A stretch of 63,991 nt of DNA, counting the filler, from Babesia bigemina (Eukaryota): assembly GCF_000981445.1 (NCBI RefSeq). It is 4 parts of 4 records of this genome, joined end to end, with 100 filler letters (N's around TTAATTAATTAA, not from the genome) between each part and the next. Parts side by side here need not be neighbours in the genome. Positions count along the whole stretch, not along the records: positions 1 to 24,585 come from NW_012237332.1; 3 more parts are not named here. The stretch is one strand, 5' to 3'. Below, piece after piece: positions 6,996-62,602 of the stretch. Every line of letters begins with the position of its first letter. The stretch's first letter is position 1. A model generated the notes under the pieces. The model worked only from the letters and a program-made list of their open reading frames with translations. It ran no database searches and was not told where the DNA came from. A program made the position numbers and the translations under genes.

Positions 6996-6996
6996 C

Positions 6997-9765: not shown

Positions 9766-9788
9766 GGTGAGCTAAGTGGTATTTATCA

Positions 9789-10920
9789 TCCACTCTACAT
9801 CGCCCCTTTATCCACTCTACATCGCTCCCTAACCCACTCCACATCGCCCCTTTATCCACTCTACATCGCTCCCTAACCCACTCTACATCGCTCCCTTATC
9901 CACTCTACATCGCTCCCTTATCCACTCTACATCGCCCCTTTACACACTCCACATCGCCCCTTAACCCACTCTACATCGCTCCTCTATCCACTCTACATCG
10001 CCCCTTACCCACTCTACATCGCTCCTTAATCCACTCTACATCGCTCCCTAACCCACTCTACATCGCCCCTTAATCCACCCTTCATCGCCCCTTAACCCAC
10101 TCTACATCGCCCCTTTATCCACTCCACATCGCTCCTTAACCCACTCTACATCGCTCCTTTATCCACTCTACATCGCTCCTTTATCCACTCTACATCGCTC
10201 CCTTACCCACTCCACATCGCTCCCTAACCCACTCCACATCGCCCCTTTACCCACTCCACATCGCCCCTTAACCCACTCTTCATCGCCCCTTAACCCACTC
10301 TACATCGCCCCTTAATCCACTCCACATCGCTCCTTAACCACTCCACATCGCTCCTTTATCCACTCTACATCGCCCCTTTACCCACTCTACATCGCCCCTT
10401 AAACTCCTCTAATCGCTTCTTTATCCACTCTACATCGCTCCCTCATCCACTCCACATCGCTCCTTTATCCACTCTACATCGCTCCCTAACTCACTCCACA
10501 TCGCTCCCTAACCCACTCTACATCGCTCCCTAACCCACTCTACATCGCTCCTTTATCCACTCTACATCGCTCCCTAACCCACTCTACATCGCTCCTTTAT
10601 CCACTCTACATCGCCCCTTTATCCACTCTACATCACCCCTTAACCCACTCTACATCGCCCCTTTGTCCACTCTACATCGCTTCTTTATCCACTCTACATC
10701 GCCCCTTTATCCACTCTACATCGCCCCTTAACCCACTCCACATCGCTCCCTAACCCACTCTACATCGCCCCTTTACCCACTCTACATCGCTCCCTAACCC
10801 ACTCTACATCGCCCCTTTATCCACTCTACATCGCCCCTTAACCCACTCTACACCGCCCCTTAACCCACTCTACATCGCTCCTTAACCCACTCTACATCGC
10901 CCCTTAACCCACTCTACATC
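9789..10920 (+). repeat. 22-bp C-rich satellite (CCACTCTACATCGCYCCYTWAY) upstream of a ves gene
   Basis: About 50 direct units, ending at the conserved leader CATCCCTYGAATCACCTCGCC. Confidence 0.97.
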
Positions 10921-10948
10921 CCTCGAATCACCTCGCCTTAATACTGCT

Positions 10949-16599: not shown

Positions 16600-17950
16600 T
16601 CCACTCTACATCGCCCCTTAACCACTCCACATCGCTGCCTAATCCACTCTGCATCGCCCCTTATCCACTCTACATCGCTCCTTATCCACTCCACATCGCC
16701 CCTTTACCCACTCTACATCGCCCCTTAACCCACTCTACATCGCTCCCTTACCCACTCTACATCGCTCCCTAACCCACTCTACATCGCCCCTTTATCCACC
16801 CTACATCGCTCCCTAACCCACTCTACATCGCTCCCTAACCCACTCTACATCGCCCCTTTATCCACTCTTCATCGCTCCCTAACCCACTCTACATCGCTCC
16901 CTAATCCACTCTTCATCGCTCCCTAACCCACTCTACATCGCTCCCTAATCCACTCTACATCGCCCCTTAACCCACTCTACATCGCTCCCTTATCCACTCT
17001 ACATCGCCCCCTAATCCACTCTACATCGCTCCTTAACCCACTCTACATCGCTCCCTAACCCACTCTACATCGCCCCTTAACCCACTCTACATCGCTCCCT
17101 AACCCACTCTACATCGCTCCCTAACCCACTCTACATCGCTCCCTAACCCACTCTACATCGCCCCTTAACCCACTCTACATCGCTCCCTAACCCACTCAAC
17201 ATCGCCCCTTTACCCACTCTACATCGTTCCCTAACCCACTCTACATCGCCCCTTAACCCACTCTACATCGCCCCTTCATCCACTCTACATCGCTCCCTAA
17301 CCCACCTTACATCGCCCCTTTATCCACTCCACATCGCCCCTTTATCCACTCCACATCGCCCCTTAACCCACTCTACATCGCCCCTTTATCCACTCTACAT
17401 CGCCCCTTTATCCACTCTACATCGCTCCTTTATCCACTCTACATCGCTCCCTAACCCACTCTACATCGCTCCTCTATCCACTCTACATCGCTCCCTGATC
17501 CACTCTACATCGCCCCTTTATCCACTCTACATCGCTCCCTAACCCACTCTACATCGCCCCTTAATCCACTCTACATCGCTCCCTAACCCACTCTACATCG
17601 CCCCTTAACCCACTCTACATCGCCCCTTTACCCACTCCACATCGCCCCTTAACCCACCCTTCATCGCTCCTTTACCCACTCTACATCGCTCCCTAACCCA
17701 CTCTACATCGCTCCCTAACCCACTCTACATCGCTCCTTTATCCACTCTACATCGCTCCTTTATCCACTCTACATCGCTCCTTATCCACTCTACATCGCTC
17801 CCTAACCCACTCCACATCGCTCCTTAACCCACTCTACATCGCCCCTTAACCCACTCTACATCGCCCCTTAACCCACTCTACATCGCCCCTTTATCCACTC
17901 TACATCGCCCCTTTATCCACTCTACATCGCTCCCTAACCCACTCTACATC
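16600..17950 (+). repeat. 22-bp satellite
   Basis: About 60 direct units. Confidence 0.97.
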
Positions 17951-18838
17951 CCTTGAATCACCTCGCCTTAATACCGCTATGACCTTTATAAACCTTTATA
18001 ATAACTTGTGCTTTGTCACCCTTCACTTCCCTCTTCCACCTCTTGCCACTGCCATGTCCCATCATGTTCACCCTAACTCCAAATCTCTCGAATTACTTCA
18101 TTATATTAACGCTATGACCTCCATTAATCATTATAATAACTTGTTGATACTGACCATTCTCTCACTGACGATGCTACTAGAAGAGCCTTGCAGGACATTG
18201 ACTCCAAGCTTGTTAGCCTTGGTCACCTGGCTGGACAGCTTGGAGGATTTGTTGGTGAAAGTGAGAGTGTTAAGAAAGCCGTTATATATGCTATTATCGC
18301 CCAAATTAACAGTAATGAAGAGCTTAAAAAGCTTTACTCTTCTCATGTTACTATCCTTTCTGAGTCTGTCAAGCCTGCTGGCAAGGCTGATGACAACCTA
18401 AAAATTAGTGAGCTTAAAGATAAAGTTACCACTGAAATTACGCTTACTGAAGAGGCAATTAAGAATCTTAAGCCTACTGAAAATAACTCTCTTCCTTCCC
18501 CCTCTCCCTCTGCTGAGCTAGCCAAATTGCACTCCAAGTTGGAGGCTTTGAGGAAGGTGGAGAAGCTTTGTGGATTTTATGAGAATCTTAATACTAAACA
18601 AAATGATCCTAAAAAGCTCTTAGATAATTTATGTTCCGGCCTCGAAAAATTCCTCGGCTTCAACTCTGACTCCAAAGGCTACGACGGCAGTGGGATTGTG
18701 TACTCTGACCTGGATAGGCTGTGTGACGCAGTGATGGGATTTTTTGAGTGGTGTGCTTGAGGATGTCAGCGAGAAACAGCCTTACAGTGTGGGTAAAACA
18801 ATACTAATAGAGATTGTTACTGGAGCTTAAAAATAATT
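17951..18838 (+). pseudogene. ves: Truncated, frameshifted duplicate of the leader and 5' end of the ves gene at 43415
   Basis: Essentially identical to 43178-44063, with an extra T at ~18741 and an extra G at ~18822, then an abrupt switch to satellite. May be an assembly artefact. Confidence 0.65.
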
Positions 18839-18844
18839 CGCTCC

Positions 18845-20406
18845 GTAATCCACTCAACATCGCTCCTTAGCGCACTGTACATCGCTCCCTAACCCACTCC
18901 ACATCGCTCCCTAACCCACTCCACATCGCTCCTTTACCCACTCCACATCGCCCCTTAATCCACCCTACATCGCCCCTCTATCCACTCTACATCGCCCCTT
19001 TACCCACTCTACATCGCCCCTTTACCCACTCTACATCGCCCCTTTACCCACTCTACATCGCCCCTTTACCCACTCTACATCGCTCCCTAACCCACTCTAC
19101 ATCGCCCCTTTACCCACTCTACATCGCCCCTTAACCCACCTTACATCGCCCCTCTACCCACTCTACATCGCTCCCTAACCCACTCTACATCGCCCCTTAA
19201 CCCACTCTACATCGCCCCTTTATCCACTCCACATCGCCCCTTAATCCACTCTACATCGCTCCCTTATCCACCCTACATCGCCCCTTAACCCACTCCACAT
19301 CGCCCCTTTATCCACTCCACATCGCTCCCTTAACCCACTCCACATCGCTCCCTAACCCACTCTACATCGCCCCCTAACCCACTCTACATCGCCCCTTAAC
19401 CCACTCCACATCGCTCCTTTATCCACTCTACATCGCCCCTTATCCACTCTACATCGCCCCTCTATCCACTCTACATCGCCCCTTTGTCCACTCTACATCC
19501 CTCCTTTATCCACTCTACATCGCTCCTTATCCACTCTACATCGCTCCCTAACCCACTCTACATCGCCCCCTAACCCACTCCACATCGCCCCCTAACCCAC
19601 TCTACATCGCCCCTTTACACACTCCACATCGCCCCTTAACCCACTCTACATCGCTCCTCTATCCACTCTACATCGCCCCTTACCCACTCTACATCGCTCC
19701 TTAATCCACTCTACATCGCTCCCTAACCCACTCTACATCGCCCCTTAATCCACCCTTCATCGCCCCTTAACCCACTCTACATCGCCCCTTTATCCACTCC
19801 ACATCGCTCCTTAACCCACTCTACATCGCTCCTTTATCCACTCTACATCGCTCCTTTATCCACTCTACATCGCTCCCTTACCCACTCCACATCGCTCCCT
19901 AACCCACTCCACATCGCCCCTTTACCCACTCCACATCGCCCCTTAACCCACTCTTCATCGCCCCTTAACCCACTCTACATCGCCCCTTAATCCACTCCAC
20001 ATCGCTCCTTAACCACTCCACATCGCTCCTTTATCCACTCTACATCGCCCCTTTACCCACTCTACATCGCCCCTTAAACTCCTCTAATCGCTTCTTTATC
20101 CACTCTACATCGCTCCCTCATCCACTCCACATCGCTCCTTTATCCACTCTACATCGCTCCCTAAATCACTCCACATCGCTCCCTAAACCACTCTACATCG
20201 CTCCCTAAACCACTCTACATCGCTCCTTTATCCACTCTACATCGCTCCCTAAACCACTCTACATCGCTCCTTTATCCACTCTACATCGCCCCTTTATCCA
20301 CTCTACATCACCCCTTAACCCACTCTACATCGCCCCTTTGTCCACTCTACATCGCTTCTTTATCCACTCTACATCGCCCCTTTATCCACTCTACATCGCC
20401 CCTTAA
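18845..20406 (+). repeat. 22-bp satellite ending at the retrotransposon 5' junction
   Basis: Direct units; the last ~810 bp are colinear with 9922-10731. Confidence 0.96.
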
Positions 20407-23400
20407 GGAGTTGGAATCTTCTGTGATTTTGGGGGAAACTTTGAGAAACGTGTTTTCTCGGGTTTATCACAGAAAGGAAATTTTTCCGATGTCACTGGGG
20501 GGTGTATTGAAGGCCAAAAGTGCGGAATTAAAGCGGCAACATCGCGAGGCGAAAGGCGGCCACACAGGCGCGCTGGATAGACGAACAAGGTACCAATGGA
20601 GAGCTCACAAGAAGTGCAGCTGAGCAGTCAAATCGATGAGGACGGAGACCTCATGGTTATTGACGTGGACGTCCCCGATGGGATGGACATCGATGCTCCG
20701 CTTGCCACCGTGGGGCGCCGAGAGTGTCGGCAACCCGAAAGGCGGCATGAATCCAGAAAACCGGTACAAAGCGGTGTTCAGGGCCCTAAAGGTAAACCCA
20801 CAAATTCGAAGGGGGCCGGCCGTGGCGGCGAAAGCCGGCCAATCCCGCAGGCAAGCCGGAAACGACACCAGCCCGGAACCACTCCGGCTGTGAAGGGCGC
20901 TGGAAACAAAGCACGGAACGGCGGTCCCCAGGGCCAAAAGGGTAACAACCGGAAGGCCAAAAAGACAGGAAACACGGCTCAAACGCCGCCTGTCGTGGTT
21001 TGCAACGCCGGGCCGAGTTCCTCGGAACGCGCACCCGTGTGTGTGCAGACACTGTCTACCCTGCAGCCACCGGCAGGGGAGGTTGTCGGAAACGGTGGCT
21101 GCCGCTCTCCGACCGTGTATTCCATATCGTCGGATGACTTTATGGACGTGGACGAAGAGGAACCTGAGCAAGTCGGGCCTGTGAGAGAATCAAACAACAG
21201 TATAGCACCGGGCACCGCCAGTGAGGTGGCGCTCACTGAGACGGCTGCGTTGCCGAGGGCACCCGAAGGGCACGCCCCGCAGGCTGAACGGGCCGGGAAC
21301 ACGCCACAAATGCCGCCGAACTACGCTAGGCTGAATGCCAAGTTACAGTTCCTGCACTGTGTCATGCGTCAGATCGATGGACCATGGTGTCATTGGGTAC
21401 CGGACGTCTACAAGGCAGTAGTGACGAAGTATCAGAGGATGCCACGAGGAGGATGGAAAGTCCTCGCGGAATATGCCAACGAGCATTTCGAATTCCACAA
21501 GACCCACAAGGAGGTGGAGCAGATGGCAAGACAGGTAGTCGCCAAAGCAGCGCGGAGCCAACCGACGGACGTTGGAGAAATAGCATCGCTGCACGACGTC
21601 GACTCATACAACGCCCTGCAGGAGGATTTCGACCGGATCATGGCACAGAGGTTGAGGGAGCCTGACCTACTACCGAAGAACAAGAAACCAAAGTCCGCCG
21701 CACAGTACAGGCCGATCACTTGCATGTCCAACCTATACAAGCTAACTACCCGTTGTGCCACGGAGACGCTTAAGCGAGAAGTCGATGGCAGGGGACTACG
21801 GTCCGAGAACCAGATGGGCACGAGGAGCAACGTACAGGGTGCAAAGGAGCACGCGTTAGCGAACATCGCGCTCAACGAGAAGCACAAGGGGAAGTTACTT
21901 GCAACGTGGGTCGACGTCATGAAGGCGTACGACTCAATCGACCACGCGTACCTGGCAAGGGTTATCGACAACCTTAACCTACCAGGGTGGTTATCAAACT
22001 TCATCAAGCAGACGATCAAGAGGTGGAATATAGAGATACGGTGGAACAAGAACACAATCATGCACAAGAAAGTGGAGAGGGGCATTCTCCAAGGCGACAG
22101 CCTATCGCCCCTTCTCTTCGTGCTGTGCTTGGACCCGCTGAGCAGGCACCTGACTCGCATCTTCCCCAAGGTGGAGTTAAGCGTGACCGGCGGCAGGATA
22201 TTCGCCACAAACCACTTTCTCTATATTGACGACCTCAAGTTCTTCGCCCACGAGGAAAGTACGATGAGAGGAATGGGCCGAGAAGTGGAGAAGTTCTTCA
22301 ACGACATAGGACTCAGGATCAACCGCGACAAGTCGGCAACCAACACGGAGGCGTGCGCCAGCATCGCCAAGCAGATGGAAGGCCCGGAAACGTACAAGTA
22401 CTTGGGAGTCACAGAGACTTCAAACTCACTGACAAGCGACGGAATGTTCGACATAATACTACAGGAGATATGCAGGAGAACGGAGCTACTGGCTGCGTCA
22501 AAGCTGTCGGGGAAAAACCTCTCGATGGCCATCAACCAGTACGCCCTCAGCGTCATCAACTACTACATCGGCGTGATCCCTATGGACATCACGCATTTCG
22601 ACAAGATCGACCTGGCAGTACGGAGAATAATTAACGCGAAGCACGGACACAAGAAGTGGGCGAACACACAGAGGCTCTACCTCCCCCGGAAAGAGATGGG
22701 GAGAGGGCTCCACAGCATGGTATTTAGAGCGGAAGCCATGCTGCTACGACTGTGGTTGACGCTTTCAGCAGACGAGGTGACGTCAACCAGGAGAGCTGCG
22801 ATCATGCAGCATTTTCGCGACACATACGCGCACATATCTCACATCAAGATGCACCTGGAAGGAAGATATGGAATGGAATTCGGAATGGAGGACACTACGG
22901 ACAAGAGCCTCAGGGACCTCAGGGTGGCCCAAAACAAATGGCTGTACAACAGAATGCACGTAAAATCAACTCATAAGGTTCTGTATGCCAAGCGTGAGGA
23001 CCCCAAGCTGGACATTGAGGCGTCGTCCTTGTACCTGACGTGTGGAATACTCACTCCGGAAGAAGAAGCGAACGTAGCGGAAGTCCAGGATAGGAATCTG
23101 CAATGGATGTCTTCGTCCAAGAAATGCACAAGATGCAACAACGGCAAGAACGTGGATCACCTCGCGACGAAGTGCCAGAAACTACTACACCTAGAATATA
23201 CGAAGAGGCACAACGAGGTAGCAAAACGGGTCCACTCAGTACTCGGGAGGCAAATAGGACTACCCAAGGAGAAGATAGACGCCCACAAGATCGAGAGTGA
23301 AGTACATGGAAAATACGGATGGATCGCGTACGACAAGACGGTCAAGACTCAGAAGACTAAGGAATACAACAGGCCAGACATCATCCTGGCGGATCGGCGG

Positions 23401-23896
23401 AGGAACACCATAACCATCGTGGAGATAGGAATCACCAATCAAGACAACCTAGTGGATACGGAGAAGTTCAAGAAGCAGAAGTATGAAGACCTTATTGAGG
23501 ACCTCAAGGCGCGACAGTTTAACCAGCACACCAAGATCAGGGTTATCCCCTACGTTATGACGTGGGAGGGAATAGTGACAAAGGAGCACAGCAAGTACAG
23601 ACGGGACCTGGGCATATCGGATCGCATGGAAGCCCACATACAAAGGGTAGTGATCCAAGAAACACATAAAATAGTGATGAGGGATATGAAGCCGAAAGAA
23701 GACTACGATTCCGTAGAAGACCCTCAAGCCCAAACTGGATGGATGCCCGCATGGATGGCACCAGTGACGTCCGGCAATGGACCGGCGTGGATCCCGCAAC
23801 CGGTTTCAGCGTGAGGCGTTAGCCCCGCAAACACGAAAACCGGCCCTAGGCACGTAGCCACATAGCACACTATAAGATGAGATAACTTAATTTAAC
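20407..23896 (+). mobile_element. Non-LTR retrotransposon copy 1 (RLE type, R4/Dong-like), with candidate 5' end and an internal in-frame deletion
   Basis: Starts where the satellite stops (CCCCTTAA|GGAGTTGG). 189-nt 5' UTR, single ORF, 82-nt 3' UTR ending GATAACTTAATTTAAC, shared with the other two copies. Confidence 0.92.
20596..23814 (+). CDS. Retrotransposon polyprotein: reverse transcriptase + CCHC knuckle + restriction-like endonuclease (1072 aa, lacks RT0 region)
   Basis: YRPITC, ENQMG, DVMKAYDSIDH, GILQGDSLSPLLF, YIDD, GLRIN, YKYLG, LYLPRKEMGRGL, CTRC-x7-H-x4-C, RHNEV, RPDII..IVEI, KKQKY. Confidence 0.93.
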   Translation: MESSQEVQLSSQIDEDGDLMVIDVDVPDGMDIDAPLATVGRRECRQPERRHESRKPVQSGVQGPKGKPTNSKGAGRGGESRPIPQASRKRHQPGTTPAVKGAGNKARNGGPQGQKGNNRKAKKTGNTAQTPPVVVCNAGPSSSERAPVCVQTLSTLQPPAGEVVGNGGCRSPTVYSISSDDFMDVDEEEPEQVGPVRESNNSIAPGTASEVALTETAALPRAPEGHAPQAERAGNTPQMPPNYARLNAKLQFLHCVMRQIDGPWCHWVPDVYKAVVTKYQRMPRGGWKVLAEYANEHFEFHKTHKEVEQMARQVVAKAARSQPTDVGEIASLHDVDSYNALQEDFDRIMAQRLREPDLLPKNKKPKSAAQYRPITCMSNLYKLTTRCATETLKREVDGRGLRSENQMGTRSNVQGAKEHALANIALNEKHKGKLLATWVDVMKAYDSIDHAYLARVIDNLNLPGWLSNFIKQTIKRWNIEIRWNKNTIMHKKVERGILQGDSLSPLLFVLCLDPLSRHLTRIFPKVELSVTGGRIFATNHFLYIDDLKFFAHEESTMRGMGREVEKFFNDIGLRINRDKSATNTEACASIAKQMEGPETYKYLGVTETSNSLTSDGMFDIILQEICRRTELLAASKLSGKNLSMAINQYALSVINYYIGVIPMDITHFDKIDLAVRRIINAKHGHKKWANTQRLYLPRKEMGRGLHSMVFRAEAMLLRLWLTLSADEVTSTRRAAIMQHFRDTYAHISHIKMHLEGRYGMEFGMEDTTDKSLRDLRVAQNKWLYNRMHVKSTHKVLYAKREDPKLDIEASSLYLTCGILTPEEEANVAEVQDRNLQWMSSSKKCTRCNNGKNVDHLATKCQKLLHLEYTKRHNEVAKRVHSVLGRQIGLPKEKIDAHKIESEVHGKYGWIAYDKTVKTQKTKEYNRPDIILADRRRNTITIVEIGITNQDNLVDTEKFKKQKYEDLIEDLKARQFNQHTKIRVIPYVMTWEGIVTKEHSKYRRDLGISDRMEAHIQRVVIQETHKIVMRDMKPKEDYDSVEDPQAQTGWMPAWMAPVTSGNGPAWIPQPVSA

Positions 23897-24585
23897 GTAG
23901 TTATATCAATCAAGCACATATATCTAGAGGGAAACTCAATGGAGAATATTACCTACAGAAGCTTGGTGAAGGTTTAAAGGATGCAATACATAAGCAGTTT
24001 AAGAAGGTGGTAGTTGGAGAAGAGGAAGAAGATATAGATCTTAAAACACTTAACAAGGATTATTACAACGAAACTGTGAAAGATGCCGAAGTAGCACACG
24101 ACAAACTTAGAGGCATGATTCAAGCTTTTAAAGGGCCAGTTGAAAAAGACGGTTTCACTGGTAATGCAGCATCAGCAAGATTTGTCGCTAAGGATATGCC
24201 GGGTTACCGAACAGGCACAATAGGCACGCCAAAAGGTAAAAAAGATGAGTACGACATCGCCTTAAACAATGTTGACACCGCGCTTAAAGCATTCGAGACT
24301 GAAGGCTGTGTCGATCATATTGAAGGCGAAGAAGCCGACATTCAACAAAAGAAAGATGAACTTGGTGGCTTCGTCACCGAAATCACTAACGAACTAAATG
24401 ACATTGGAGTTTTAATTGACAGCACCTCAGGTGTGGTAGTGAACAGACAGATGATGTCTGCAGATCCACAAGGCCTCAAGCAGAAGTTCATTGACTTGAG
24501 AAGTAAAATCGGCAGAACCATCGGTGTTGAAACAGTCAGGATAGGCACTCTTCAGAAAATTCATGACGATATGACTACTTTAAGA
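23896..24585 (+). pseudogene. ves: Internal ves-like coding fragment starting at the retroelement 3' end, cut by the gap
   Basis: Frame is open from 23896 (RSYINQAH...). GLKQKFIDLRSKIGRT resembles GRLTELKRRIGRT and GVKRKITDLRHMI in the other ves ORFs. Confidence 0.65.
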
Positions 24586-26579: not shown

Positions 26580-27119
26580 TTAGCTATAAAACGCGATGCA
26601 GAAGGGTATCTTGCGTACGAGGAAATCGCGGATGTTGCGGCCCACCGGAAAGCGGAAGATGCACAGGTCGAGCAGGATGATGGCGACGATGATGGCAACG
26701 ATGACGGCGGCGATGGTGGAGGGGTCAGGGTGGAAAGGTGTGGAGGATTTGACGGGAATGTCTCCATTGGAATTCTCTTGATCAGAAGTATCGCGCAGTA
26801 GACTGGTCTGAGCCTCAGCATGGGAGGAATCAGGGAGAGGCGGTGGAGCGGGGGGCTTGCACTTGTCAGCCTGCTCTGCACATTGTTTTTTACAACATCT
26901 ACATTGACATTTGGTAAAGTCGGGACACTTATTTGTTTGTTTTGCACATCCGTCCGGATGGCAGTCAGTCTTATTTTTGCGCAGGAGGAGATATCCCCAA
27001 CATCCATTGCAATTGTCACTCTTACATTTTTCACAGCACCACGAGCAGCAGACACAACTAAACCGTGGACAACTAATATCACATGTACACGGAGAACCTG
27101 ACGTGGACACCCAAACCAT
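26580..27119 (-). CDS. Small Cys-rich single-pass membrane protein (179 aa)
   Basis: GGAAGATGG start, CVCCSWCC...CHPDGC...CQCRCC, Pro/Ser linker, TM IAAVIVAIIVAIILLDLCIF, tail RFPVGRNIRDFLVRKIPF. Confidence 0.75.
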   Translation of the reverse strand: MVWVSTSGSPCTCDISCPRFSCVCCSWCCEKCKSDNCNGCWGYLLLRKNKTDCHPDGCAKQTNKCPDFTKCQCRCCKKQCAEQADKCKPPAPPPLPDSSHAEAQTSLLRDTSDQENSNGDIPVKSSTPFHPDPSTIAAVIVAIIVAIILLDLCIFRFPVGRNIRDFLVRKIPFCIAFYS

Positions 27120-27124
27120 CTTCC

Positions 27125-27740
27125 GCTACCAATCCCCTCAACCTGCAAACATATCAATCACCTAGCAAAGCACTCACCAACTGCAACACGTGCTACTGCC
27201 GCTCCCAGTCCCCTCAGCCTGCAGACATATCAATCACCTAGCAACTCACTCACCAACTGCCACACGTACCACTGCCGCTCCCAGTCCCCTCAACCTGCAA
27301 ACATATCAATCACCTAGCAAGCACTCACCAACTGCAACACTACCACTGCCGCGCCCAGTCCCCTCAACCTGCACACATGTCAACCACTTAAGCAATCACT
27401 CACCAACTGCAGCACTACCACTGCCGTCCCAGTCCCCTCAACTTGCAAACATGTCAATCACTTAAGTAAGCACTCACCAACTGCAACACTACCACTGCCA
27501 CTCCAGTCCCCTCAGCCTGCGAACATATCAATCACCTAGCAACGCACTCACCAACTGCAACACGTACACTGCCGCTCCCAGTCCCCTCAACCTGCAAACA
27601 TATCAATCACTAAGCTACGCACTCACCAACTGCAACACTACCACTGCCGCTCCCACTCCCCTCACCCTGCAAAGCTATCAATCACACAAGCAGCACTCAC
27701 CAACTGCAACACTACCACTGCCCCTCCCAGTACCCTCATC
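27125..27740 (-). repeat. ~75-bp exon/intron-like tandem repeat, about 8 units
   Basis: Reverse complement of the 7510-8655 unit. Confidence 0.92.
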
Positions 27741-28265
27741 AACACTCACCCTCACCGCTGTATCCCCCCAGCCCAGGCCACCGACACCCACGCTGCCCGG
27801 GATACCACGGCTGCCCTGACGCGACGCATGTGATCAGCACCAACTGTCATTCTAAATTATTCACTATTCACAATGCCATTAAAATTGCAGCTGGCCCCGT
27901 GCGCTCAACTCCCACAGTGCAGCAGCACCGTGCTACGAGCCGCGGTATCGGCGCCATACTGGCGGAGCGTGTCGGCTACGTGCCTAAATGTGATATTAAC
28001 AATCGCTACATCGCTACCTATAAATGCTACTTAACCAGGCCAACGCCGATTGCGCCACCCTGCCGGTGACTCGCAACACACGACTTAGCTCAGCCGCCGC
28101 GGTCCTCACGACCGCCTACGTTAGCAACCAATCACCCAGCCTCACGTGACACTGACTCAATGGGCAACGCGGACGCCTCTCACAGTCAACGCGTTACTCA
28201 ACGCACCAGGCAATCAACGTGCTACAACACCCACCAAATTACGGTTAATCCGCCAGCGTATCAAT

Positions 28266-28660
28266 TTGCCTGGGTGCTAGGTTACCACTTAGCCTGGTTG
28301 CTAGCTTAGCACTTTGCCTGGGTGCCACCTTAGCACTTTGCCTGGCTGCTAGCTTAGCACCTAGCTTGGATGCTAGGTCAACACGTTGCCTGGTTGCTAG
28401 GTCAACACGTTGCCTGGTTGCTAGCTTAGCACTTTGCCTGGTTGCTAGCTTAGCACTTTGCCTGGGTGCTAGCTTATCACTTTGCCTGGGTGCTAGGTCA
28501 ACACGTTGCCTGGTTGCTAGCTTAGCACTTTGCCTGGGTGCCAGCTTAGCACTCTGCCTGGCTTCTAGCTTAGCACTTTGCCTGGGTGCTAGCTTACCAC
28601 TTTGCCTGGGTGCTAGCTTAGCACTTTGCCCGCTTGCCAGCTTACCACGTTGCCTGGTCG
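28266..28660 (-). repeat. 24-bp tandem repeat, about 16 units
   Basis: Reverse complement of the 6397-6995 unit. Confidence 0.95.
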
Positions 28661-36800: not shown

Positions 36801-39800
36801 TTACGGTTGCAGGTAAAACACTCTGTTAAGCTTGTTAACACGCGCAGCAGCAAGTAGTGATTGAGCTGCTATACGATGTGATGAGGGACTATGTAAATGC
36901 GATTTGATGTGGAGCAGGTCTAGGCGGATGACCATGATCTGGAGGAGGTAGAGAAGGGAGAGGAGCCAGAGCGCGACGTTGAGCCAGATGAAGGGGGCGC
37001 GGATGGTGAAGAGGAAATTGTCGCATTGCTTGAATAACGTTTCGAAGTATTTGGATTCAAGCACTGACTTGAGTTGTGTATAGAAATTAAAGCACATTTT
37101 TTGTCTATGCTTGGCGTTCAATTTGGCAGCATCACCAAACGTAAATCCGTGTTGATATAACGTTGGCCAAACGCCGTTACAGCTTACAACGGAGAGACAT
37201 CTACACGTTTTGTCAAGGGTTCCATGCTGCCCTTGTCTACATTTTGCGCTGCTCATACATTTTTTGCATCCCCAGTCTTGACATATGATACGGGTGAAGG
37301 CGTCAAGTAAGGATTGAAGCATTTGATATAAAGACCAAGGTAGGTAGACTGCCCATGACACGTATACGTCAGCATGCTTTGGGGCAAGGTATAAGTAAGA
37401 ATCATGGCATAGCGATTGAAGGTAAGGAGCGCATTGCTGGCCGGAACATAAGTTCGTATTCTTCGGTAAGCAGACACTAATTACGTCGGCGTGTTGAGTG
37501 TCGGCGTGCGATAAGTCATTGTCAGCATCGTTATGCTTGTGCCCATAGATGCTTCTGAATGTATCACAAAGTTCGGCAGTATCGTTGACTAGCTTTATGG
37601 ACAGCTTTTTAATCGAGCCTTCAAATGCATATTGCACCACGTGCTTGTTCGCTGAATATATCTTCTGCCAATTTCCGAAAAGCTGCGTTACAAAACTCAA
37701 ATGTTCGGGCAGAGTGGACGGCGGCTTCGGAGCTAGGCAGAGGAGCGATGAAAGTAGGCTGCCGCCGAAGAATTGACGAAGTACCTCACATAAGTCGTAA
37801 CCCGTTTTGGTTGATCCAGAGAACGCTCTAAAGCCAAGCGGAGTTAGGCACGGCATTCCTCGTTTATTAGTAGGGCACGTGGAACATTTGGCTTTGCAGC
37901 CGATGTCGCTTAGGTGGTGCGGTAAATGACCCGGCAGGCAGTCACCCAGGTAGGACATCAAGGGGGACGTAGGTTGGCAGTTTGCCTGGCAATTTGGTTC
38001 GCACTTTGTTTTGCAATTTGGTTTGCACGTTGAGTGTTGTTTGCATTGAGATTTGGCAGTAGAGGCATCTCTGCCGTACTGACAATTGCGCCAACCGTTA
38101 TGCTCAGCTGAAATACCACATCGGTAGAACAAATATTTCAGCGGTGGTAACAGCCGATGGACGACGTCAAGAATAGTCTGAAGGCACTCTTCACCGGAGG
38201 TAGGGTAATAGAATTTCATGGAGTTGTTCAACATATCGCAACCATACGTCGTGTATGCGTTACCAGTTCCAACAACCGTTACCAATATTTCGTATGATTT
38301 TGAACAGAGGTGGCCGAGCACTTTAGCGGTGTTCTTATACGTTATCTTATGTGGATATGCGTCTATATATGACGCTTGCAGATCAAGTACCGGAGTGCCT
38401 TCTATATCGCCGGATGGCTTGTTTGGATCAATGAAAGGATCACTGATACCGTCTACTAACAACGCGGAATATACTGGGTTATACGGCAATCCGCTGAACC
38501 AGCAGAGCATTTGGTATATATTACAGGGCGCTTTCGCACCGGGAATATGGGCCAAGTGAGAGACTTGGTAGTACGCCTCCAGATAATAGCAAACCAGGTA
38601 CAGTGGGCCTTCATCCTTGGCATCATCGTGACTAGTGTAGACTTTTTTAGTCGGACCGATCATACGACCGAGAATATGTGCGCCAGTCATACCCGATGCG
38701 TCTTGCAACTCCCCGTTCTGCTCACCGTCGCTGGAGATTTCGAAACCTAGTCCTACGAAGTGTTTGCCAAGATCCGCTGATGTGTTAAGTTGTTGTTTGG
38801 GCAGACTCTTGCAATTGCGCTTAACATCATGCAGCGACGTTTTCAAGATTGACAGCAGAGTGACAAAAGCTTTGGCGCATTGTAGACCGTATTCTGTCAC
38901 TCCCGTGGTTAACACCTCCGTCCAACTGAAATGCGTTGGAGCGCCGGAATACTTATTCACGTACGCCTTGTCAAGTTCGCAGTGCAACCGGTGGAAACCA
39001 TCTTTCAAGATGTTGAGCAGAACGTTCTGCTGTCCGTTGAATAAGGTGGGTTGTATTTCGGTGAGTAACTGATTAACTGCGGCTAGGTTGTCAACAAACT
39101 GCGCATCGTATTTGCTAAGTCCGGTTAAAAGCGTACTAAGGGCTGCTAATAGGTCGGGAATTTGGGGATGTCTGCATCCGATGTCCTTCCGCGACTGCAA
39201 CTCGTTTAGCAACCCGCTGAAGAGCAGATTAACGTCGAACCAAAAATCGGAGAGTGTCGCATTGTACTGTAGTTGCTCATTGAATGCAGTGAACCTAAAC
39301 GTTTCCTGAAGCAATCCCATGAAGCCCTTGAAACCCTTAGTGGCGTCTGCTGTGACCTTATCGGGGAGACCACCAAGTTCGTTGGCTACTTTGTCACATA
39401 ATGCCTGAATGTTCAACTTCATGAATATAACGTGACTTGTTCTAATATCTTCTAAAATTGCCGATTGTGCTGCATCGAGGTGTTCGTTGATATGTAGTTC
39501 AACATCTCCGATGATCTTATTTTGTTGACTAGAGGCGTGGTTGGCGATGCCTTGAGTTTGTGATATCAGTGGATCCATGCGCTCTGTTAGCAGTTTGATT
39601 AAGTCTTTCATAATTTTCTTCAAGCCTTTCTGAACTTGACCCCCAATATTATATTCATCGTTGTTGATCATGTGTCGCAGATCCGTTATTTTTCTTTTTA
39701 CACCGTCTTCGTGTTGGTCGTCAGCCGCATTGATGATAGCTGTGCAGAGGGTGACGATTTTTTTGCGAATGATATCGGTTGCGTTTTTTTCAATAGATGT

Positions 39801-41392
39801 GGCATTAATATTTTCTTCTAAAATTTTCAAAGGTTGCAATGCTGATTTTTGGAGTGTCCGAATTTTCCCCTTAATCGTATTATCACGAAATTCATCATCA
39901 CCTATATGTTCCGTATAACTTGTCATAAGATCCTTGACACTATCAGCCTGACGATGAGCCTCTTCAAATCTCAGCTCTACTTCCTTCTGAAGATTTCTAT
40001 TGAGAGTGCCATTGAGGTCGTTAATTTTTACTTTGATCTGGTCAAATGCTTTCTGAATTTCTTCACCAATATCTCCTGAGTCTTCGTCCGTATTAATCTT
40101 AACACCGATTTCTGCGACATCGGTAATAGCCTGAGTCAGGTTTGCAATGTGGGAAGAAGTGAAGAATGTTTCTATTGATTTGCCAAATGTTGAAGCAGCA
40201 GTATGCAGAAATTTAAAGACGATTTCCAAGACGGATCGCAAATTATTATTCGATGAAGTAAGTCCAAGCGATTTTACCCTAACATCTTGCTCAATACCTT
40301 GCACAAATAGTTTAATTTTTTCATCGTCAATCTCACCCTTTATTTCTGCGGCAATCGTATCAAGGAACTGCTTTATGTTTTTTAACTTCTGATCAATGCT
40401 TTCACTTCCCGAGCTTTGTAACCGAACTTTTCCGAGACGTTCTATAATCTTATCCTTGGTAACATTCCTTACTGCATCAACCTCATCGGGCTTAGCTGCG
40501 TAATATCCAATATAAAATGTCACTACCTTGCTATTCCAAACTTCATCAAACCACTTACCGACTGTGCATTGATCCGCGTCACCATCATCTTTTATTGCGA
40601 ATTTCTCGAACGCCGTGACGTACGTGTCAACTCCTTGATACATCTGAGTTAATCCCTTACCGGAACCAGTCAAACCATTAACAAGTTCTTTGATCTCATC
40701 TTTAAGATCGACCCATTTCTCTATAACACCTGTGTTATCATCGTCACCAATCGTGTTGTTTTTTATCCCCGCAAAATGCTTCTTTGCCTGATCAACAAAC
40801 GCAGTAATTGTCAGATCAATTGTTCCTTTCAAAGTTGACAAATCCTTCGTTATAGCGACATCCAACTTTTCAACTGCCTTCGTGACTTCTTCTACCAATG
40901 GTGGTAATGCTTTCTCTGACGCTTTATAGGCGTTATACAATTTCAGAGCGTTAGTCTTTAATTCTGAAACGGCCTTCTCAAGTTTTAACCTGTTATGTGT
41001 GCCTAAGGTTCCACTTGCTTCTGAAATGATATCGTTTACCCGTCGAAACGCTTCGTCGAGCGCGGTCTCCGCTTTTTTAATCCATGCCTCCAATTCCCTT
41101 ATATAACCCATGAAGGTGTCGTTAATCTTTCTCAGATCCTGTTTCAGTTCAACAATTTTCTGATTCATACCTCTTACAAATCTTCTAATTTGTTCCGCCA
41201 CTTGTGAATTTATCTGTTGCTTCGCCGAACTCATCACATCGGTCACTTTTGTCTCCACTCGTCGCACTTTAATATTTTGATATGTCCAAATTTCGTGCAG
41301 TCTATCACGTTGGTATTTTATTCCTTGTGTTACCATGTGAATCTCATTGTTTAAAGTATTCTGCAAATCGTGGATATCATCATGTTCCCCTT
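36801..41392 (-). pseudogene. ves: ves gene 5'-truncated by the retrotransposon; subfamily-1 body with tail type B
   Basis: Frame stays open up to the element end (GEHDDIHDLQNTL...); lacks the YSDLDRLCD N-terminus found in all intact copies. Confidence 0.8.
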
Positions 41393-42716
41393 GTTAAATT
41401 AAGTTATCTCATCTTATAGTGTGCTATGTGGCTACGTGCCTAGGGCCGGTTTTCGTGTTTGCGGGGCTAACGCCTCACGCTGAAACCGGTTGCGGGATCC
41501 ACGCCGGTCCATTGCCGGACGTCACTGGTGCCATCCATGCGGGCATCCATCCAGTTTGGGCTTGAGGGTCTTCTACGGAATCGTAGTCTTCTTTCGGCTT
41601 CATATCCCTCATCACTATTTTATGTGTTTCTTGGATCACTACCCTTTGTATGTGGGCTTCCATGCGATCCGATATGCCCAGGTCCCGTCTATACTTGCTG
41701 TGTTCTTTCGTCACTATTCCCTCCCACGTCATAACGTAGGGGATAACCCTGATCTTGGTGTGCTGGTTAAACTGTCGCGCCTTGAGGTCCTCAATAAGGT
41801 CTTCATACTTCTGCTTCTTGAACTTCTCCGTATCCACTAGGTTGTCTTGATTGGTGATTCCTATCTCCACGATGGTTATGGTGTTCCTCCGCCGATCCGC
41901 CAGGATGATGTCTGGCCTGTTGTATTCCTTAGTCTTCTGAGTCTTGACCGTCTTGTCGTACGCGATCCATCCGTATTTTCCATGTACTTCACTCTCGATC
42001 TTGTGGGCGTCTATCTTCTCCTTGGGTAGTCCTATTTGCCTCCCGAGTACTGAGTGGACCCGTTTTGCTACCTCGTTGTGCCTCTTCGTATATTCTAGGT
42101 GTAGTAGTTTCGGGCACTTCGTCGCGAGGTGGTCCACGTTCTTGCCGTTGTTGCATCTTGAGCATTTCTTGGACGAAGTCATCCATTGCAGATTCCTGTC
42201 CTGGACTTCTGCTACCTTCGCTTCTTCTTCCGGGGTGAGTATTCCACACGTCAGGTACAATGACGACGCCTCGATGTCCAGCTTGGGGTCCTCACGCTTG
42301 GCATACAGAACCTTATGAGTTGATTTTACGTGCATTCTGTTGTACAGCCATTTGTTTTGGGCCACCCTGAGGTCCCTGAGGCTCTTGTCCGTAGTGTCCT
42401 CCATTCCGAATTCCATTCCATATCTTCCTTCCAGGTGCATCTTGATGTGAGATATGTGCGCGTATGTGTCGCGAAAATGCTGCATGATCGCAGCTCTCCT
42501 GGTTGACGTCACCTCGTCTGCTGAAACGTCAACCACAGTCGTAGCAGCATGGCTTCCGCTCTAAATACCATGCTGTGGAGCCCTCTCCCCATCTCTTTCC
42601 GGGGGAGGTAGAGCCTCTGTGTGTTCGCCCACTTCTTGTGTCCGTGCTTCGCGTTAATTATTCTCCGTACTGCCAGGTCGATCTTGTCGAAATGCGTGAT
42701 GTCCATAGGGATCACG
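41393..42716 (-). mobile_element. Retrotransposon copy 2 (3' 1.3 kb, cut by the gap; 1-bp frameshift at ~42526)
   Basis: Reverse complement of ~22572-23896, including the 3' UTR; encodes the CCHC and RLE domains (ORF 41475-42536). Confidence 0.92.
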
Positions 42717-42816: not shown

Positions 42817-43177
42817 CTCCACATCGTTCCTTAACCCACTCTACATCGCCCCTTTACCCACTCTACATCGCCCCTTCATCCACTCTACATCGCTCCCTAA
42901 CCCACCTTACATCGCCCTTTAACCCACTCCACATCGCCCCTTTACCCACCTTACATCGCTCTTTTACCCACTCTACATCGCTCCCTAACCCACTATACAT
43001 CGCTCCCTAACCCACTCTACATCGCCCCTTTACCCACTCTACATCGCCCCTTTACCCACTCTACATCGCCCCTTTATCCACTCTACATCGCCCCTTAACC
43101 CACTCTACATCGCCCCTTTATCCACTCTACATCGCCCCTTTATCCACTCTACATCGCTCCCTAACCCACTCTACATC
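42817..43177 (+). repeat. 22-bp satellite
   Basis: Direct periodicity. Confidence 0.96.
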
Positions 43178-49662: not shown

Positions 49663-49680
49663 CCAGAGTGGTGATTATTA

Positions 49681-59557: not shown

Positions 59558-62423
59558 TCGGGAAAGAAGGAGGCAGCTGAGAGGAGGATCAAGGAGCTGG
59601 AGGAGATAGGAGCATTACTTCTGAAATACAAGCAGAAGGTCCCCCTGGAGAAGGAGGATAGGAAACGCGTTTATCGCCAAATGGACAAGTACAACATGAT
59701 CGCGGACAAGCCGCAGGAACTGTCATACGTGATCAGCAGGACTCAAGAGGAGCTCCAAAAGGAGCAGGACAAACTCAAGAACGCCAAGTTCAAGAAGGAG
59801 TTGTACAACGACAACCGCATGTTCGAGCTCTACACGGGACACTTCTACAGGACACTGGAGAACAAGCAGGACGCGGACGAGTCGGCGATAAACGAGGGGA
59901 TGATGATAGAGTACTGGGCGCAAATGTGGGTGAAGCCAAACGCACCGCACAACGGTGAAGGATATCTGGTCGAAAGACCACCGGCAGAGAACAAGGCAGG
60001 CTTTCCCACATACGAGGAATTCGTCACGATCGTCAAGAAATTGCGAGACTGGAAGTCGCCCGGTGCGGATGGGATCTACAACTACTACATTAAATGGCTC
60101 ACGTCCCTTCACAGAGTCATTTACAGGCTAGTAGAGGAGGTATGCCAGCAAGGCAAAGTGCAGGACGACTGGTTCTACTGTGGGATCACGTACCTACTAC
60201 CGAAGAACAAGAAACCAAAGTCCGCCGCACAGTACAGGCCGATCACTTGCATGTCCAACCTATACAAGCTAACTACCCGTTGTGCCACGGAGACGCTTAA
60301 GCGAGAAGTCGATGGCAGGGGACTACGGTCCGAGAACCAGATGGGCACGAGGAGCAACGTACAGGGTGCAAAGGAGCACGCGTTAGCGAACATCGCGCTC
60401 AACGAGAAGCACAAGGGGAAGTTACTTGCAACGTGGGTCGACGTCATGAAGGCGTACGACTCAATCGACCACGCGTACCTGGCAAGGGTTATCGACAACC
60501 TTAACCTACCAGGGTGGTTATCAAACTTCATCAAGCAGACGATCAAGAGGTGGAATATAGAGATACGGTGGAACAAGAACACAATCATGCACAAGAAAGT
60601 GGAGAGGGGCATTCTCCAAGGCGACAGCCTATCGCCCCTTCTCTTCGTGCTGTGCTTGGACCCGCTGAGCAGGCACCTGACTCGCATCTTCCCCAAGGTG
60701 GAGTTAAGCGTGACCGGCGGCAGGATATTCGCCACAAACCACTTTCTCTATATTGACGACCTCAAGTTCTTCGCCCACGAGGAAAGTACGATGAGAGGAA
60801 TGGGCCGAGAAGTGGAGAAGTTCTTCAACGACATAGGACTCAGGATCAACCGCGACAAGTCGGCAACCAACACGGAGGCGTGCGCCAGCATCGCCAAGCA
60901 GATGGAAGGCCCGGAAACGTACAAGTACTTGGGAGTCACAGAGACTTCAAACTCACTGACAAGCGACGGAATGTTCGACATAATACTACAGGAGATATGC
61001 AGGAGAACGGAGCTACTGGCTGCGTCAAAGCTGTCGGGGAAAAACCTCTCGATGGCCATCAACCAGTACGCCCTCAGCGTCATCAACTACTACATCGGCG
61101 TGATCCCCATGGACATCACGCATTTCGACAAGATCGACCTGGCAGTACGGAGAATAATTAACGCGAAGCACGGACACAAGAAGTGGGCGAACACACAGAG
61201 GCTCTACCTCCCCCGGAAAGAGATGGGGAGAGGGCTCCACAGCATGGTATTTAGAGCGGAAGCCATGCTGCTACGACTGTGGTTGACGCTTTCAGCAGAC
61301 GAGGTGACGTCAACCAGGAGAGCTGCGATCATGCAGCATTTTCGCGACACATACGCGCACATATCTCACATCAAGATGCACCTGGAAGGAAGATATGGAA
61401 TGGAATTCGGAATGGAGGACACTACGGACAAGAGCCTCAGGGACCTCAGGGTGGCCCAAAACAAATGGCTGTACAACAGAATGCACGTAAAATCAACTCA
61501 TAAGGTTCTGTATGCCAAGCGTGAGGACCCCAAGCTGGACATTGAGGCGTCGTCCTTGTACCTGACGTGTGGAATACTCACTCCGGAAGAAGAAGCGAAC
61601 GTAGCGGAAGTCCAGGATAGGAATCTGCAATGGATGTCTTCGTCCAAGAAATGCACAAGATGCAACAACGGCAAGAACGTGGATCACCTCGCGACGAAGT
61701 GCCAGAAACTACTACACCTAGAATATACGAAGAGGCACAACGAGGTAGCAAAACGGGTCCACTCAGTACTCGGGAGGCAAATAGGACTACCCAAGGAGAA
61801 GATAGACGCCCACAAGATCGAGAGTGAAGTACATGGAAAATACGGATGGATCGCGTACGACAAGACGGTCAAGACTCAGAAGACTAAGGAATACAACAGG
61901 CCAGACATCATCCTGGCGGATCGGCGGAGGAACACCATAACCATCGTGGAGATAGGAATCACCAATCAAGACAACCTAGTGGATACGGAGAAGTTCAAGA
62001 AGCAGAAGTATGAAGACCTTATTGAGGACCTCAAGGCGCGACAGTTTAACCAGCACACCAAGATCAGGGTTATCCCCTACGTTATGACGTGGGAGGGAAT
62101 AGTGACAAAGGAGCACAGCAAGTACAGACGGGACCTGGGCATATCGGATCGCATGGAAGCCCACATACAAAGGGTAGTGATCCAAGAAACACATAAAATA
62201 GTGATGAGGGATATGAAGCCGAAAGAAGACTACGATTCCGTAGAAGACCCTCAAGCCCAAACTGGATGGATGCCCGCATGGATGGCACCAGTGACGTCCG
62301 GCAATGGACCGGCGTGGATCCCGCAACCGGTTTCAGCGTGAGGCGTTAGCCCCGCAAACACGAAAACCGGCCCTAGGCACGTAGCCACATAGCACACTAT
62401 AAGATGAGATAACTTAATTTAAC
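59558..62423 (+). mobile_element. Retrotransposon copy 3 (5' end lost in the gap; complete RT including RT0)
   Basis: From 60192 on it is near-identical to 21665-23896, with the same 3' end. Confidence 0.93.
59681..62341 (+). CDS. Retrotransposon RT-CCHC-RLE polyprotein, 5'-partial (frame open back to 59558)
   Basis: WKSPGADGI (RT0), YRPITC, QGDSLSP, YIDD, YKYLG, CCHC, RHN, PD..E, KxxKY. Confidence 0.93.
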   Translation: MDKYNMIADKPQELSYVISRTQEELQKEQDKLKNAKFKKELYNDNRMFELYTGHFYRTLENKQDADESAINEGMMIEYWAQMWVKPNAPHNGEGYLVERPPAENKAGFPTYEEFVTIVKKLRDWKSPGADGIYNYYIKWLTSLHRVIYRLVEEVCQQGKVQDDWFYCGITYLLPKNKKPKSAAQYRPITCMSNLYKLTTRCATETLKREVDGRGLRSENQMGTRSNVQGAKEHALANIALNEKHKGKLLATWVDVMKAYDSIDHAYLARVIDNLNLPGWLSNFIKQTIKRWNIEIRWNKNTIMHKKVERGILQGDSLSPLLFVLCLDPLSRHLTRIFPKVELSVTGGRIFATNHFLYIDDLKFFAHEESTMRGMGREVEKFFNDIGLRINRDKSATNTEACASIAKQMEGPETYKYLGVTETSNSLTSDGMFDIILQEICRRTELLAASKLSGKNLSMAINQYALSVINYYIGVIPMDITHFDKIDLAVRRIINAKHGHKKWANTQRLYLPRKEMGRGLHSMVFRAEAMLLRLWLTLSADEVTSTRRAAIMQHFRDTYAHISHIKMHLEGRYGMEFGMEDTTDKSLRDLRVAQNKWLYNRMHVKSTHKVLYAKREDPKLDIEASSLYLTCGILTPEEEANVAEVQDRNLQWMSSSKKCTRCNNGKNVDHLATKCQKLLHLEYTKRHNEVAKRVHSVLGRQIGLPKEKIDAHKIESEVHGKYGWIAYDKTVKTQKTKEYNRPDIILADRRRNTITIVEIGITNQDNLVDTEKFKKQKYEDLIEDLKARQFNQHTKIRVIPYVMTWEGIVTKEHSKYRRDLGISDRMEAHIQRVVIQETHKIVMRDMKPKEDYDSVEDPQAQTGWMPAWMAPVTSGNGPAWIPQPVSA

Positions 62424-62602
62424 ATAGGAAGAGGTCATAGCGTTAATATAACGAAGTAATTCGAAGGATTTGGAGATAGGGTGAATATGATGGGACACGG
62501 CAGTGGCAAGAGGTGGAAGAGGGGAAGTGAAGGGTGACAAAGCACAAGTTATTATTGTGGTTTAAAGAGGTCATAGCGGTATTATGGCGAGGTGATTCAA
62601 GG
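62424..62602 (-). promoter_or_regulatory. ves leader remnant interrupted by retrotransposon copy 3
   Basis: Matches ~34505-34677. Confidence 0.75.

What the first reader, a model, noticed from the sequence alone, without database searches (positions are those of the whole stretch)
20407..23896. Young RLE-type non-LTR retrotransposon family inside a Babesia ves antigen array
Seen: three copies (20407-23896 +, 41393-42716 -, 59558-62423 +) on three separate contigs, encoding RT (YIDD), a CCHC knuckle and a PD..E/KxxKY endonuclease, with no APE or integrase. Copies 1 and 3 differ at only one base I could find over ~2.2 kb (22581 vs 61108). Known: this layout and the LYLPRxxxGRGL motif are typical of R4/Dong-like elements, and piroplasmid genomes are generally described as lacking transposons. 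Inference: a recently active, possibly horizontally acquired element. Gap-free junctions with ves DNA argue against host or tick contamination.
Basis: partly seen in the sequence, partly recalled or inferred. Interest (0 to 1): 0.92.

Follow-up and report, generated by a model that had tools for sequence, protein, structure and literature searches.

The report
Young microsporidian-like retrotransposon in Babesia
This cattle blood parasite carries near-identical copies of a jumping gene inside and beside its surface-antigen genes; such elements were already noted in Babesia, but this one is likely still mobile and likely came long ago from microsporidia, an unrelated group of parasites.

Summary
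The element is real and belongs to Babesia bigemina: a 4,315-bp single-ORF non-LTR retrotransposon (RT, CCHC knuckle, PD-(D/E)xK endonuclease; predicted fold matches R2). Copies 1 and 3 differ at 1 of 2,232 bases. Corrections: copy 1 lacks 825 bp in frame; copies 2 and 3 are cut by contig ends; copy 1's flanks do not rebuild one empty site. Contamination is very unlikely: 8 accessions of the intact 1,347-aa protein lie in the B. bigemina reference, some on megabase contigs, and relatives occur in B. ovata, B. caballi, B. divergens and Theileria equi. The premise that piroplasmids lack transposons is wrong: LINE-like elements were reported in B. bigemina, B. ovata, B. divergens and T. equi in 2022 (PMC9141347). 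Not found in print in 10 searches: piroplasmid elements nest among microsporidian ones (placement outside rejected, AU p 0.0001-0.006) and share an N-terminal domain absent from 110 of 110 insect relatives, pointing to an ancient transfer, not a recent one. Gene models place the element at ves-like loci in three Babesia species. R4/Dong membership was not directly tested.

The parts
20407..23896 (+). Element copy 1: both ends present, 825-bp in-frame internal deletion (3,490 of 4,315 bp)
   Evidence: 5' end at 20407 and the 825 missing letters seen in contigs of runs X1 and X2; alignment to P0001
20407..20595 (+). 5' UTR
   Evidence: From the 5' end to the ATG that starts P0001; no folding better than shuffles (z -0.43 for 20407-20550)
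20596..23814 (+). Single ORF of copy 1 (1,072 aa; matches P0121 apart from the deletion and one residue at its join)
21340..21558 (+). N-terminal helical domain (WP...RMPRxGW) shared with microsporidia-associated elements; likely nucleic-acid binding (inferred)
   Evidence: no clear fold match
21664..21665 (+). Deletion join of copy 1; removes the N-terminal extension and RT motif 0/1, so this copy is probably inactive in cis
22222..22233 (+). RT catalytic motif YIDD
22675..22710 (+). Thumb-region motif LYLPRxxxGRGL
23125..23175 (+). CCHC zinc knuckle (CxxC-x8-H-x4-C), followed by RHN
23371..23484 (+). Restriction-like endonuclease motifs PD...E...KxxKY
   Evidence: model aligns to the C-terminal end of R2 proteins
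23815..23896 (+). 3' UTR, identical terminal 30 bases in all three copies, ends TTTAAC, no poly(A)
   Evidence: no folding better than shuffles
41393..42716 (-). Element copy 2, 3' part; cut by the contig end; 1-bp deletion near 42527 breaks the frame
59558..62423 (+). Element copy 3, cut by the contig start; open 927-aa frame, one residue from P0121
18838..20406 (+). 22-bp tandem array, 5' flank of copy 1; 19464-20406 is 98% identical to 9788-10731
23897..24585 (+). 3' flank of copy 1: open frame, weakly like the middle of ves1 proteins; present without the element next to it in a contig of run X5
   Evidence: no database homolog
36801..41392 (-). ves1-like gene lacking its first ~220-330 codons; copy 2 joins it in sense orientation
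62424..62602 (-). Conserved 5' segment of a ves1-like gene (89-94% identical to five paralogous segments in the window); copy 3 joins it in antisense, 14 bases after an ATG motif

Best explanation
This is a genuine Babesia bigemina single-ORF non-LTR retrotransposon with an R2-like reverse transcriptase and endonuclease, present as near-identical copies at ves antigen loci, which likely still copies itself by target-primed reverse transcription and whose lineage likely entered piroplasmids long ago from microsporidia. Shown: anatomy, intact full-length ORFs, near-identity, different flanks, ves-like neighbours in three species, nesting in the tree. Inferred from R2 biology: the protein binds its own RNA, the endonuclease nicks the target, the freed end primes cDNA synthesis from the RNA 3' end, and early stops give 5'-truncated copies. 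Inferred: it has no strict target sequence, and copies collect at ves loci because these redundant genes tolerate insertion (targeting is not excluded); copies break individual ves genes and offer 4.3-kb identical blocks for recombination between loci.
For: Motifs and fold; model pLDDT 89.4; Foldseek ranks 1-7 are R2 proteins (best E 7.5e-28, TM 0.68); VIA Z 34.3, rmsd 5.2, 763 aligned to R2Tg through its C-terminus. Genuine: 8 GenBank accessions of the 1,347-aa protein, 0-4 residues apart, two of four sequences on 2.8- and 3.5-Mb contigs; relatives in five piroplasmid species. Recent: 1 of 2,232 bases between copies 1 and 3; four different 3' flanks (three in the window, one in X1) and two different 5' flanks at the same end points; X5 holds copy 1's 3' flank preceded by 63 other letters. 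ves link: gene-model fusions P0130 (B. bigemina), P0136 (B. ovata, element between ves-like parts), P0008 (B. caballi, VESA1_N). Origin: trees of 73 and 34 rows nest piroplasmid rows among microsporidian rows; AU rejects piroplasmids outside that group, p 0.00014 (34 rows, LG+F+G4), 0.0056 (27 rows, long branches dropped) and 0.00015 (PMSF C10); N-terminal domain in 6 of 6 piroplasmid rows, 5 of 10 named or likely microsporidian rows (E under 1e-3), 0 of 110 insect-side rows.
Against: No direct evidence of transposition or of full-length RNA; near-identity could also come from gene conversion or duplication of ves loci. No target-site duplication could be read; copy 1's flanks do not match one empty site, so a mis-join is possible. 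4 of 8 fused or extended gene models examined did not show ves sequence beside the element (P0128, P0108, P0158, P0126), and fusions are a biased sample. Most ingroup rows are unnamed metagenome proteins; Octopus, Dermatophagoides and Polistes rows may be contaminants of unknown source; the root hangs on a long branch (about 25-28% identity); constrained trees were fast searches. The three Dictyocoela-type rows lack the shared N-terminal domain. T. equi and Babesia rows are not supported as one clade (73, split; not rejected, p 0.26-0.34).
Confidence: 0.75

Rival explanations
1. Real and recently mobile, but inherited vertically from an early eukaryote; the likeness to microsporidian elements reflects old paralogy and loss in other lineages.
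For: RLE elements are an old group (PMC4640811 passages). Patchy loss is common; sampling of alveolate elements here is thin, and most ingroup rows have no taxon.
Against: Piroplasmid-to-Vairimorpha/Hamiltosporidium identity is 38-49%, like that within microsporidia (45-58% among four genera-level rows) and above Dictyocoela (31-34%) and insect rows (24-28%). No other apicomplexan among the named rows of the best 120. AU tests.
Confidence: 0.15
2. The element is no longer mobile; its near-identical copies were spread and homogenised by the recombination and gene conversion that shuffle ves loci.
For: ves loci recombine often (PMC4066756 passages); the region upstream of copy 1 is itself a mosaic of 97-98% identical blocks.
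Against: Homology between copies stops at the element ends, with unrelated flanks; intact catalytic motifs; 10 of 14 copy-2 substitutions are synonymous.
Confidence: 0.07
3. Contamination from host, tick or a microsporidian, mis-joined to ves contigs.
For: Short-contig assembly; copy 1's flanks do not match; another paper found bovine-like BovB and L1 in a B. bigemina assembly (PMC13465657 passages).
Against: Species-specific versions on megabase contigs of B. bigemina, B. ovata, B. caballi and T. equi; Babesia rows form one clade, support 100, with bigemina and ovata as sisters.
Confidence: 0.02
4. The element targets ves loci through a sequence or chromatin preference and has been kept as a source of antigen-gene rearrangement.
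For: All 4 junctions in the window touch ves-associated DNA; ves-like neighbours in three species; most RLE clades are site-specific.
Against: The window holds only ves-rich contigs, so this is ascertainment; flanks share no motif; T. equi, which is not known to have ves genes (recalled), has the element, and B. bovis, which has them, was reported to lack it.
Confidence: 0.1

Closest known systems
LINE-like TEs of Babesia and Theileria equi (Rodriguez and Makalowski 2022, PMC9141347; models Bova_19, Bdiv_22, Tequ_3)
   Same: Same host species pattern (bigemina, ovata, divergens, T. equi; not bovis); non-LTR RT; Tequ_3 is 4,426 nt with an R2-like hit. Very likely the same family.
   Different: No B. 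bigemina model row was seen in the supplement search; the text (read whole) gives no full-length anatomy, endonuclease type, age, ves link or microsporidian affinity.
Microsporidian non-LTR elements (Vairimorpha, Hamiltosporidium, Enteropsectra; classed 'Dong-R4' in Nosema bombycis and Microsporidia sp. MB, PMC3614468 and PMC13174016 passages)
   Same: Single ORF, RT-CCHC-RLE, shared N-terminal WP...RMPRxGW domain, 38-44% identity to Babesia rows over the core.
   Different: Host is an apicomplexan; Babesia protein has a ~230-aa low-complexity N-terminal extension (1,347 vs ~1,145 aa). That the named hits are the elements called Dong-R4 in those papers was not checked.
R2 retrotransposons (R2Bm 8GH6, R2Tg 9DOU/9NL3)
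   Same: Predicted fold from RT through the endonuclease; inferred TPRT mechanism.
   Different: 15-16% identity; no N-terminal zinc finger seen; not in 28S rDNA.
Insect RLE elements (Loxostege, Diaphorina, Sitophilus and others; presumed R4/Dong, label recalled)
   Same: Next-closest group, RT to RLE.
   Different: 24-28% identity; lack the shared N-terminal domain (0 of 110).

Membership tests
RLE-encoding non-LTR retrotransposons | Single ORF with non-LTR-type RT | tested here: met
   RVT_1 E 8e-31; PDB sequence hits are L1 and R2 proteins only, 10 of 10
RLE-encoding non-LTR retrotransposons | C-terminal CCHC knuckle and PD-(D/E)xK endonuclease | tested here: met
   Motifs conserved across alignment A1; model aligns to R2Tg residue 1388
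RLE-encoding non-LTR retrotransposons | No APE, integrase or long terminal repeats | tested here: met
   Only RVT_1 in Pfam; terminal 30-mers match only their own ends
RLE-encoding non-LTR retrotransposons | Fixed 3' end with variable 5' truncation | tested here: inconclusive
   3' end fixed in 3 of 3 copies; copies 2 and 3 are cut by contig ends; summed contig depth about 10-fold higher at the 3' end in 2 of 4 runs is only a hint
RLE-encoding non-LTR retrotransposons | Target-site duplication or defined junction | tested here: inconclusive
   Only copy 1 has both ends and its flanks do not match
RLE-encoding non-LTR retrotransposons | Target-primed reverse transcription activity | not testable with these tools
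   Inferred from fold
R4/Dong clade | RT phylogeny groups with named R4, Dong, Rex6 elements | tested here: inconclusive
   No named reference obtainable; nearest outside group is unnamed insect RLE elements
R4/Dong clade | LYLPRxxxGRGL thumb motif (recalled as typical) | tested here: met
R4/Dong clade | Insertion into rDNA or TAA microsatellite (recalled for R4 and Dong; not universal in the clade) | tested here: not met
   Four unrelated 3' flanks, none rDNA-like or a microsatellite on reading
R2 clade | N-terminal zinc finger(s) and Myb domain | tested here: inconclusive
   No Pfam hit; helical domain without clear fold match, best Z 6.0, rmsd 2.8, 62 aligned
R2 clade | 28S rDNA target site | tested here: not met
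   Flanks are ves-associated DNA

The most novel reading that the evidence does not exclude
A microsporidian retrotransposon crossed into the piroplasmid lineage (once or twice, probably inside an arthropod host), is still jumping in B. bigemina, and shapes antigenic variation by breaking ves genes, seeding recombination between ves loci and supplying the reverse transcriptase that the old retro-copy hypothesis for ves1-alpha genes requires.
Probability: 0.25. Interest if true: 0.85.

Novelty: new member of a known kind. Interest (0 to 1): 0.58.

Why it matters
Apicomplexans are mostly free of mobile elements, and the earlier survey left open whether the piroplasmid LINEs arose by one gain with losses or two gains. 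The tree names a likely donor group, a fungus-related parasite lineage, which makes this a candidate transfer of a non-LTR element between eukaryotic supergroups. An intact, young element at ves loci is a testable source of variation in the main antigen family, of strain-typing markers, and of the RT activity implied by the suggestion that ves1-alpha arose by retrotranscription (PMC4066756 passage). It also explains a set of mis-annotated 'hypothetical' and fused gene models.

Tried and rejected
No whole genome held for this window, so no genome-wide insertion map or copy count for this assembly. A second read-laying, meant to show empty sites and more 3' junctions, gave no result; junction structure stays open. 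UTR folding no better than shuffles. N-terminal domain: no Pfam, Foldseek or clear VIA match; a Myb reading is neither shown nor excluded. Copy 1's 3' flank: no homolog among 2,522 candidates, no pairwise match to P0130; Atlas look-ups for it and for the N-terminal region did not complete. Window ves-like ORFs did not hit Pfam VESA1_N (6 of 6 scanned); the ves label rests on the recalled C-terminal motif, their mutual likeness and matches to Babesia proteins. The mixture-model careful tree and treekit AU test did not finish; replaced by direct IQ-TREE runs. Earlier scan notes: none. No mention of retrotransposons or RT genes found by term search in the B. bigemina, B. ovata, B. divergens and T. 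equi genome papers.
Full report
Observation. The window is four contigs joined by N-linkers, each rich in long ves1-like ORFs and 12-, 20-, 22-, 24- and 74-bp tandem arrays. Three copies of one element lie at 20407-23896 (+), 41393-42716 (-) and 59558-62423 (+). Copies 1 and 3 differ at 1 of 2,232 shared bases; copy 2 differs from copy 1 by 14 substitutions (10 synonymous) and one 1-bp deletion in about 1,325 bases. All three share the same last 30 bases; only copy 1 has the 5' end. Copies 2 and 3 stop at contig ends.

Anatomy. The best database hit is a 1,347-aa B. bigemina protein, P0001. Copy 3 encodes its residues 421-1347; copy 1 encodes it with residues 358-632 missing. Laying public contigs on copy 1 (4 of 24 listed runs) gave one 4,608-nt contig in X1 that starts the element at exactly 20407 behind a different flank, carries 825 extra letters at 21664|21665 and ends at 23896: full length 4,315 bp. 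X2 also has the 825 letters and a contig ending its match at 20407; X4 runs on into other sequence at 21664. No listed contig shows copy 1's deleted form. The protein has a low-complexity N-terminus, a helical domain at residues 249-321, the RT (YIDD), a thumb motif LYLPRxxxGRGL, a CCHC knuckle, RHN, and PD...E...KxxKY. Pfam finds only RVT_1. The model of the copy-3 protein (71-row alignment, pLDDT 89.4) matches R2 proteins best (Foldseek ranks 1-7, best E 7.5e-28; VIA Z 34.3, rmsd 5.2, 763 aligned, reaching R2Tg residue 1388; L1 ORF2p scores nearly as well on the RT part). It is an RLE-type non-LTR retrotransposon.

Not contamination. The cluster of P0001 (10 members read) lists 8 GenBank accessions of 1,347-aa proteins, 0-4 residues apart, with longest contigs up to 2.8 and 3.5 Mb. 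Relatives occur in B. ovata (two families), B. caballi, B. divergens and T. equi, at 79, 54, 53 and 40% core identity to the B. bigemina protein, and the Babesia rows form one clade with support 100. The internal order (caballi with divergens) does not fully follow the species tree as I recall it.

Age and activity. Near-identity, intact ORFs and unrelated flanks at fixed ends indicate recent copying. X5 holds copy 1's 3' flank (23901-24195, 3 differences) behind 63 other letters, consistent with an empty site. Summed depth rises about tenfold at the 3' end in X2 and X5 but not in X1 and X4; this is no copy number and only hints at truncated copies. Transposition and transcription were not shown. 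A published table lists two B. bigemina RT-like genes strongly up in blood stages (PMC9806345, passages); I could not map them to this family.

Junctions. Copy 2 joins a ves1-like ORF in sense, where paralogs are at about residue 220-330. Copy 3 joins in antisense the conserved 5' segment of a ves1-like gene. Copy 1 has a 22-bp array on its 5' side and a weakly ves-like frame on its 3' side (14.7 bits vs at most 4.2 in 50 shuffles); the array's near-twin at 9788-10731 simply continues as array. So copy 1 marks a recombination or deletion joint, or an assembly mis-join, and no target-site duplication can be read. The four 3' flanks share no motif. In other assemblies, fused gene models put the element beside ves-like sequence in 3 cases from three species (P0130, P0136, P0008) and beside other or unidentified sequence in others (P0128, P0108, P0158). 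The window is ves-rich by construction, so enrichment is suggested, not measured.

Origin. After piroplasmids, the named hits among the best 120 of 642 are microsporidia (Vairimorpha, Hamiltosporidium, Enteropsectra, Dictyocoela), three animal assemblies and bacterial bins where they are probably foreign; most hits are unnamed. An exhaustive search (457 proteins at E under 1e-30, best 150 listed) showed a second tier at 26-31%; 2 of 10 looked up were named, both insects, and a search from one gave insect elements. Rooted on these, piroplasmid rows nest inside the microsporidia-associated clade, with Dictyocoela and Enteropsectra outside and Vairimorpha and Hamiltosporidium inside (73 chosen rows; 34 rows, mixture model; rows chosen by hand from 471 fetched). 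Forcing piroplasmids outside is rejected: p 0.00014, 0.0056 with seven long branches dropped, 0.00015 under PMSF. Piroplasmid monophyly is neither supported nor rejected (p 0.26-0.34), so one or two entries. A profile of the N-terminal domain built from 34 non-piroplasmid rows hits 6 of 6 piroplasmid rows, 5 of 10 named or likely microsporidian rows, 0 of 110 insect-side and 0 of 57 second-tier rows. Limits: long root branch, fast constrained searches, unnamed rows, thin alveolate sampling.

What is known. PMC9141347 (whole text read, supplement searched by terms) reports LINE-like TEs in B. bigemina (0.97% of the genome), B. ovata, B. divergens and T. equi, none in B. bovis, and classes three B. 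divergens elements as LINE R2. PMC10463595 (passages) notes an RT-motif gene cluster in B. caballi and B. ovata. PMC3614468 and PMC13174016 (passages) report Dong-R4 LINEs in microsporidia; PMC4202319 and PMC7313128 (passages) report TE exchange between microsporidia and animals, with no hit for 'apicomplex'. PMC4640811, PMC4066756, PMC13465657, PMC6715253, PMC3505731, PMC5660447 were seen as term passages only. Ten full-text searches (listings seen) showed no paper linking the piroplasmid elements to microsporidia or to ves loci; subscription journals and Repbase were not searchable, and the MGEScan table of the 2022 supplement was not read.

Verdict. Real, young, known at a coarse level; a new member of the RLE non-LTR kind. 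Odds: genuine element 0.97; mobile now or very recently 0.85; ancient transfer from a microsporidia-associated lineage 0.65; a role in ves variation beyond passive tolerance 0.2. Interest 0.58.

Noticed in passing
window 16601-20406: Mosaic upstream of copy 1: array, then a ves 5' piece 96.8% identical to 42817-44063 that stops at 18838, then a second array 98% identical to 9788-10731. Either a recombined ves locus or an assembly join.
   Followed up: partly
window 23897-23900 and 62424-62429: The first 4-6 bases after the element's 3' end do not match empty-site relatives in copies 1 and 3; possibly untemplated or variable terminal bases.
   Followed up: partly
window 9790-10924, 16601-17950, 34678-35676, 42817-43177, 49678-51536, 58292-59457, 62603-63991: A stereotyped block of 12-, 20- and 22-bp tandem arrays sits directly upstream of each ves1-like gene; candidate regulatory or recombination element.
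   Followed up: no
window 17979/18114, 43206/43341, 51565/51701, 34649/34513, 62574/62438: The ves 5' segment holds a doubled start motif about 135 bases apart; the copy at 10924 onward has only the first.
   Followed up: no
P0199 (B. ovata): A second B. ovata family, about 50% identical to the first, shows two coexisting element lineages in one species.
   Followed up: partly
P0056, P0200, P0072, P0086, P0076: Octopus sinensis, Dermatophagoides pteronyssinus and Polistes dominula assemblies hold elements of the microsporidia-associated clade: parasite contamination or further transfers.
   Followed up: no
P0039, P0048, P0093, P0116, P0438: Eukaryotic retrotransposon proteins are filed under bacterial genome bins or species, likely binning contamination.
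   Followed up: no
window 6397-8652 and 27115-28657: 24-bp and 74-bp arrays follow or precede ves1-like genes as an 88% identical block on two contigs.
   Followed up: no
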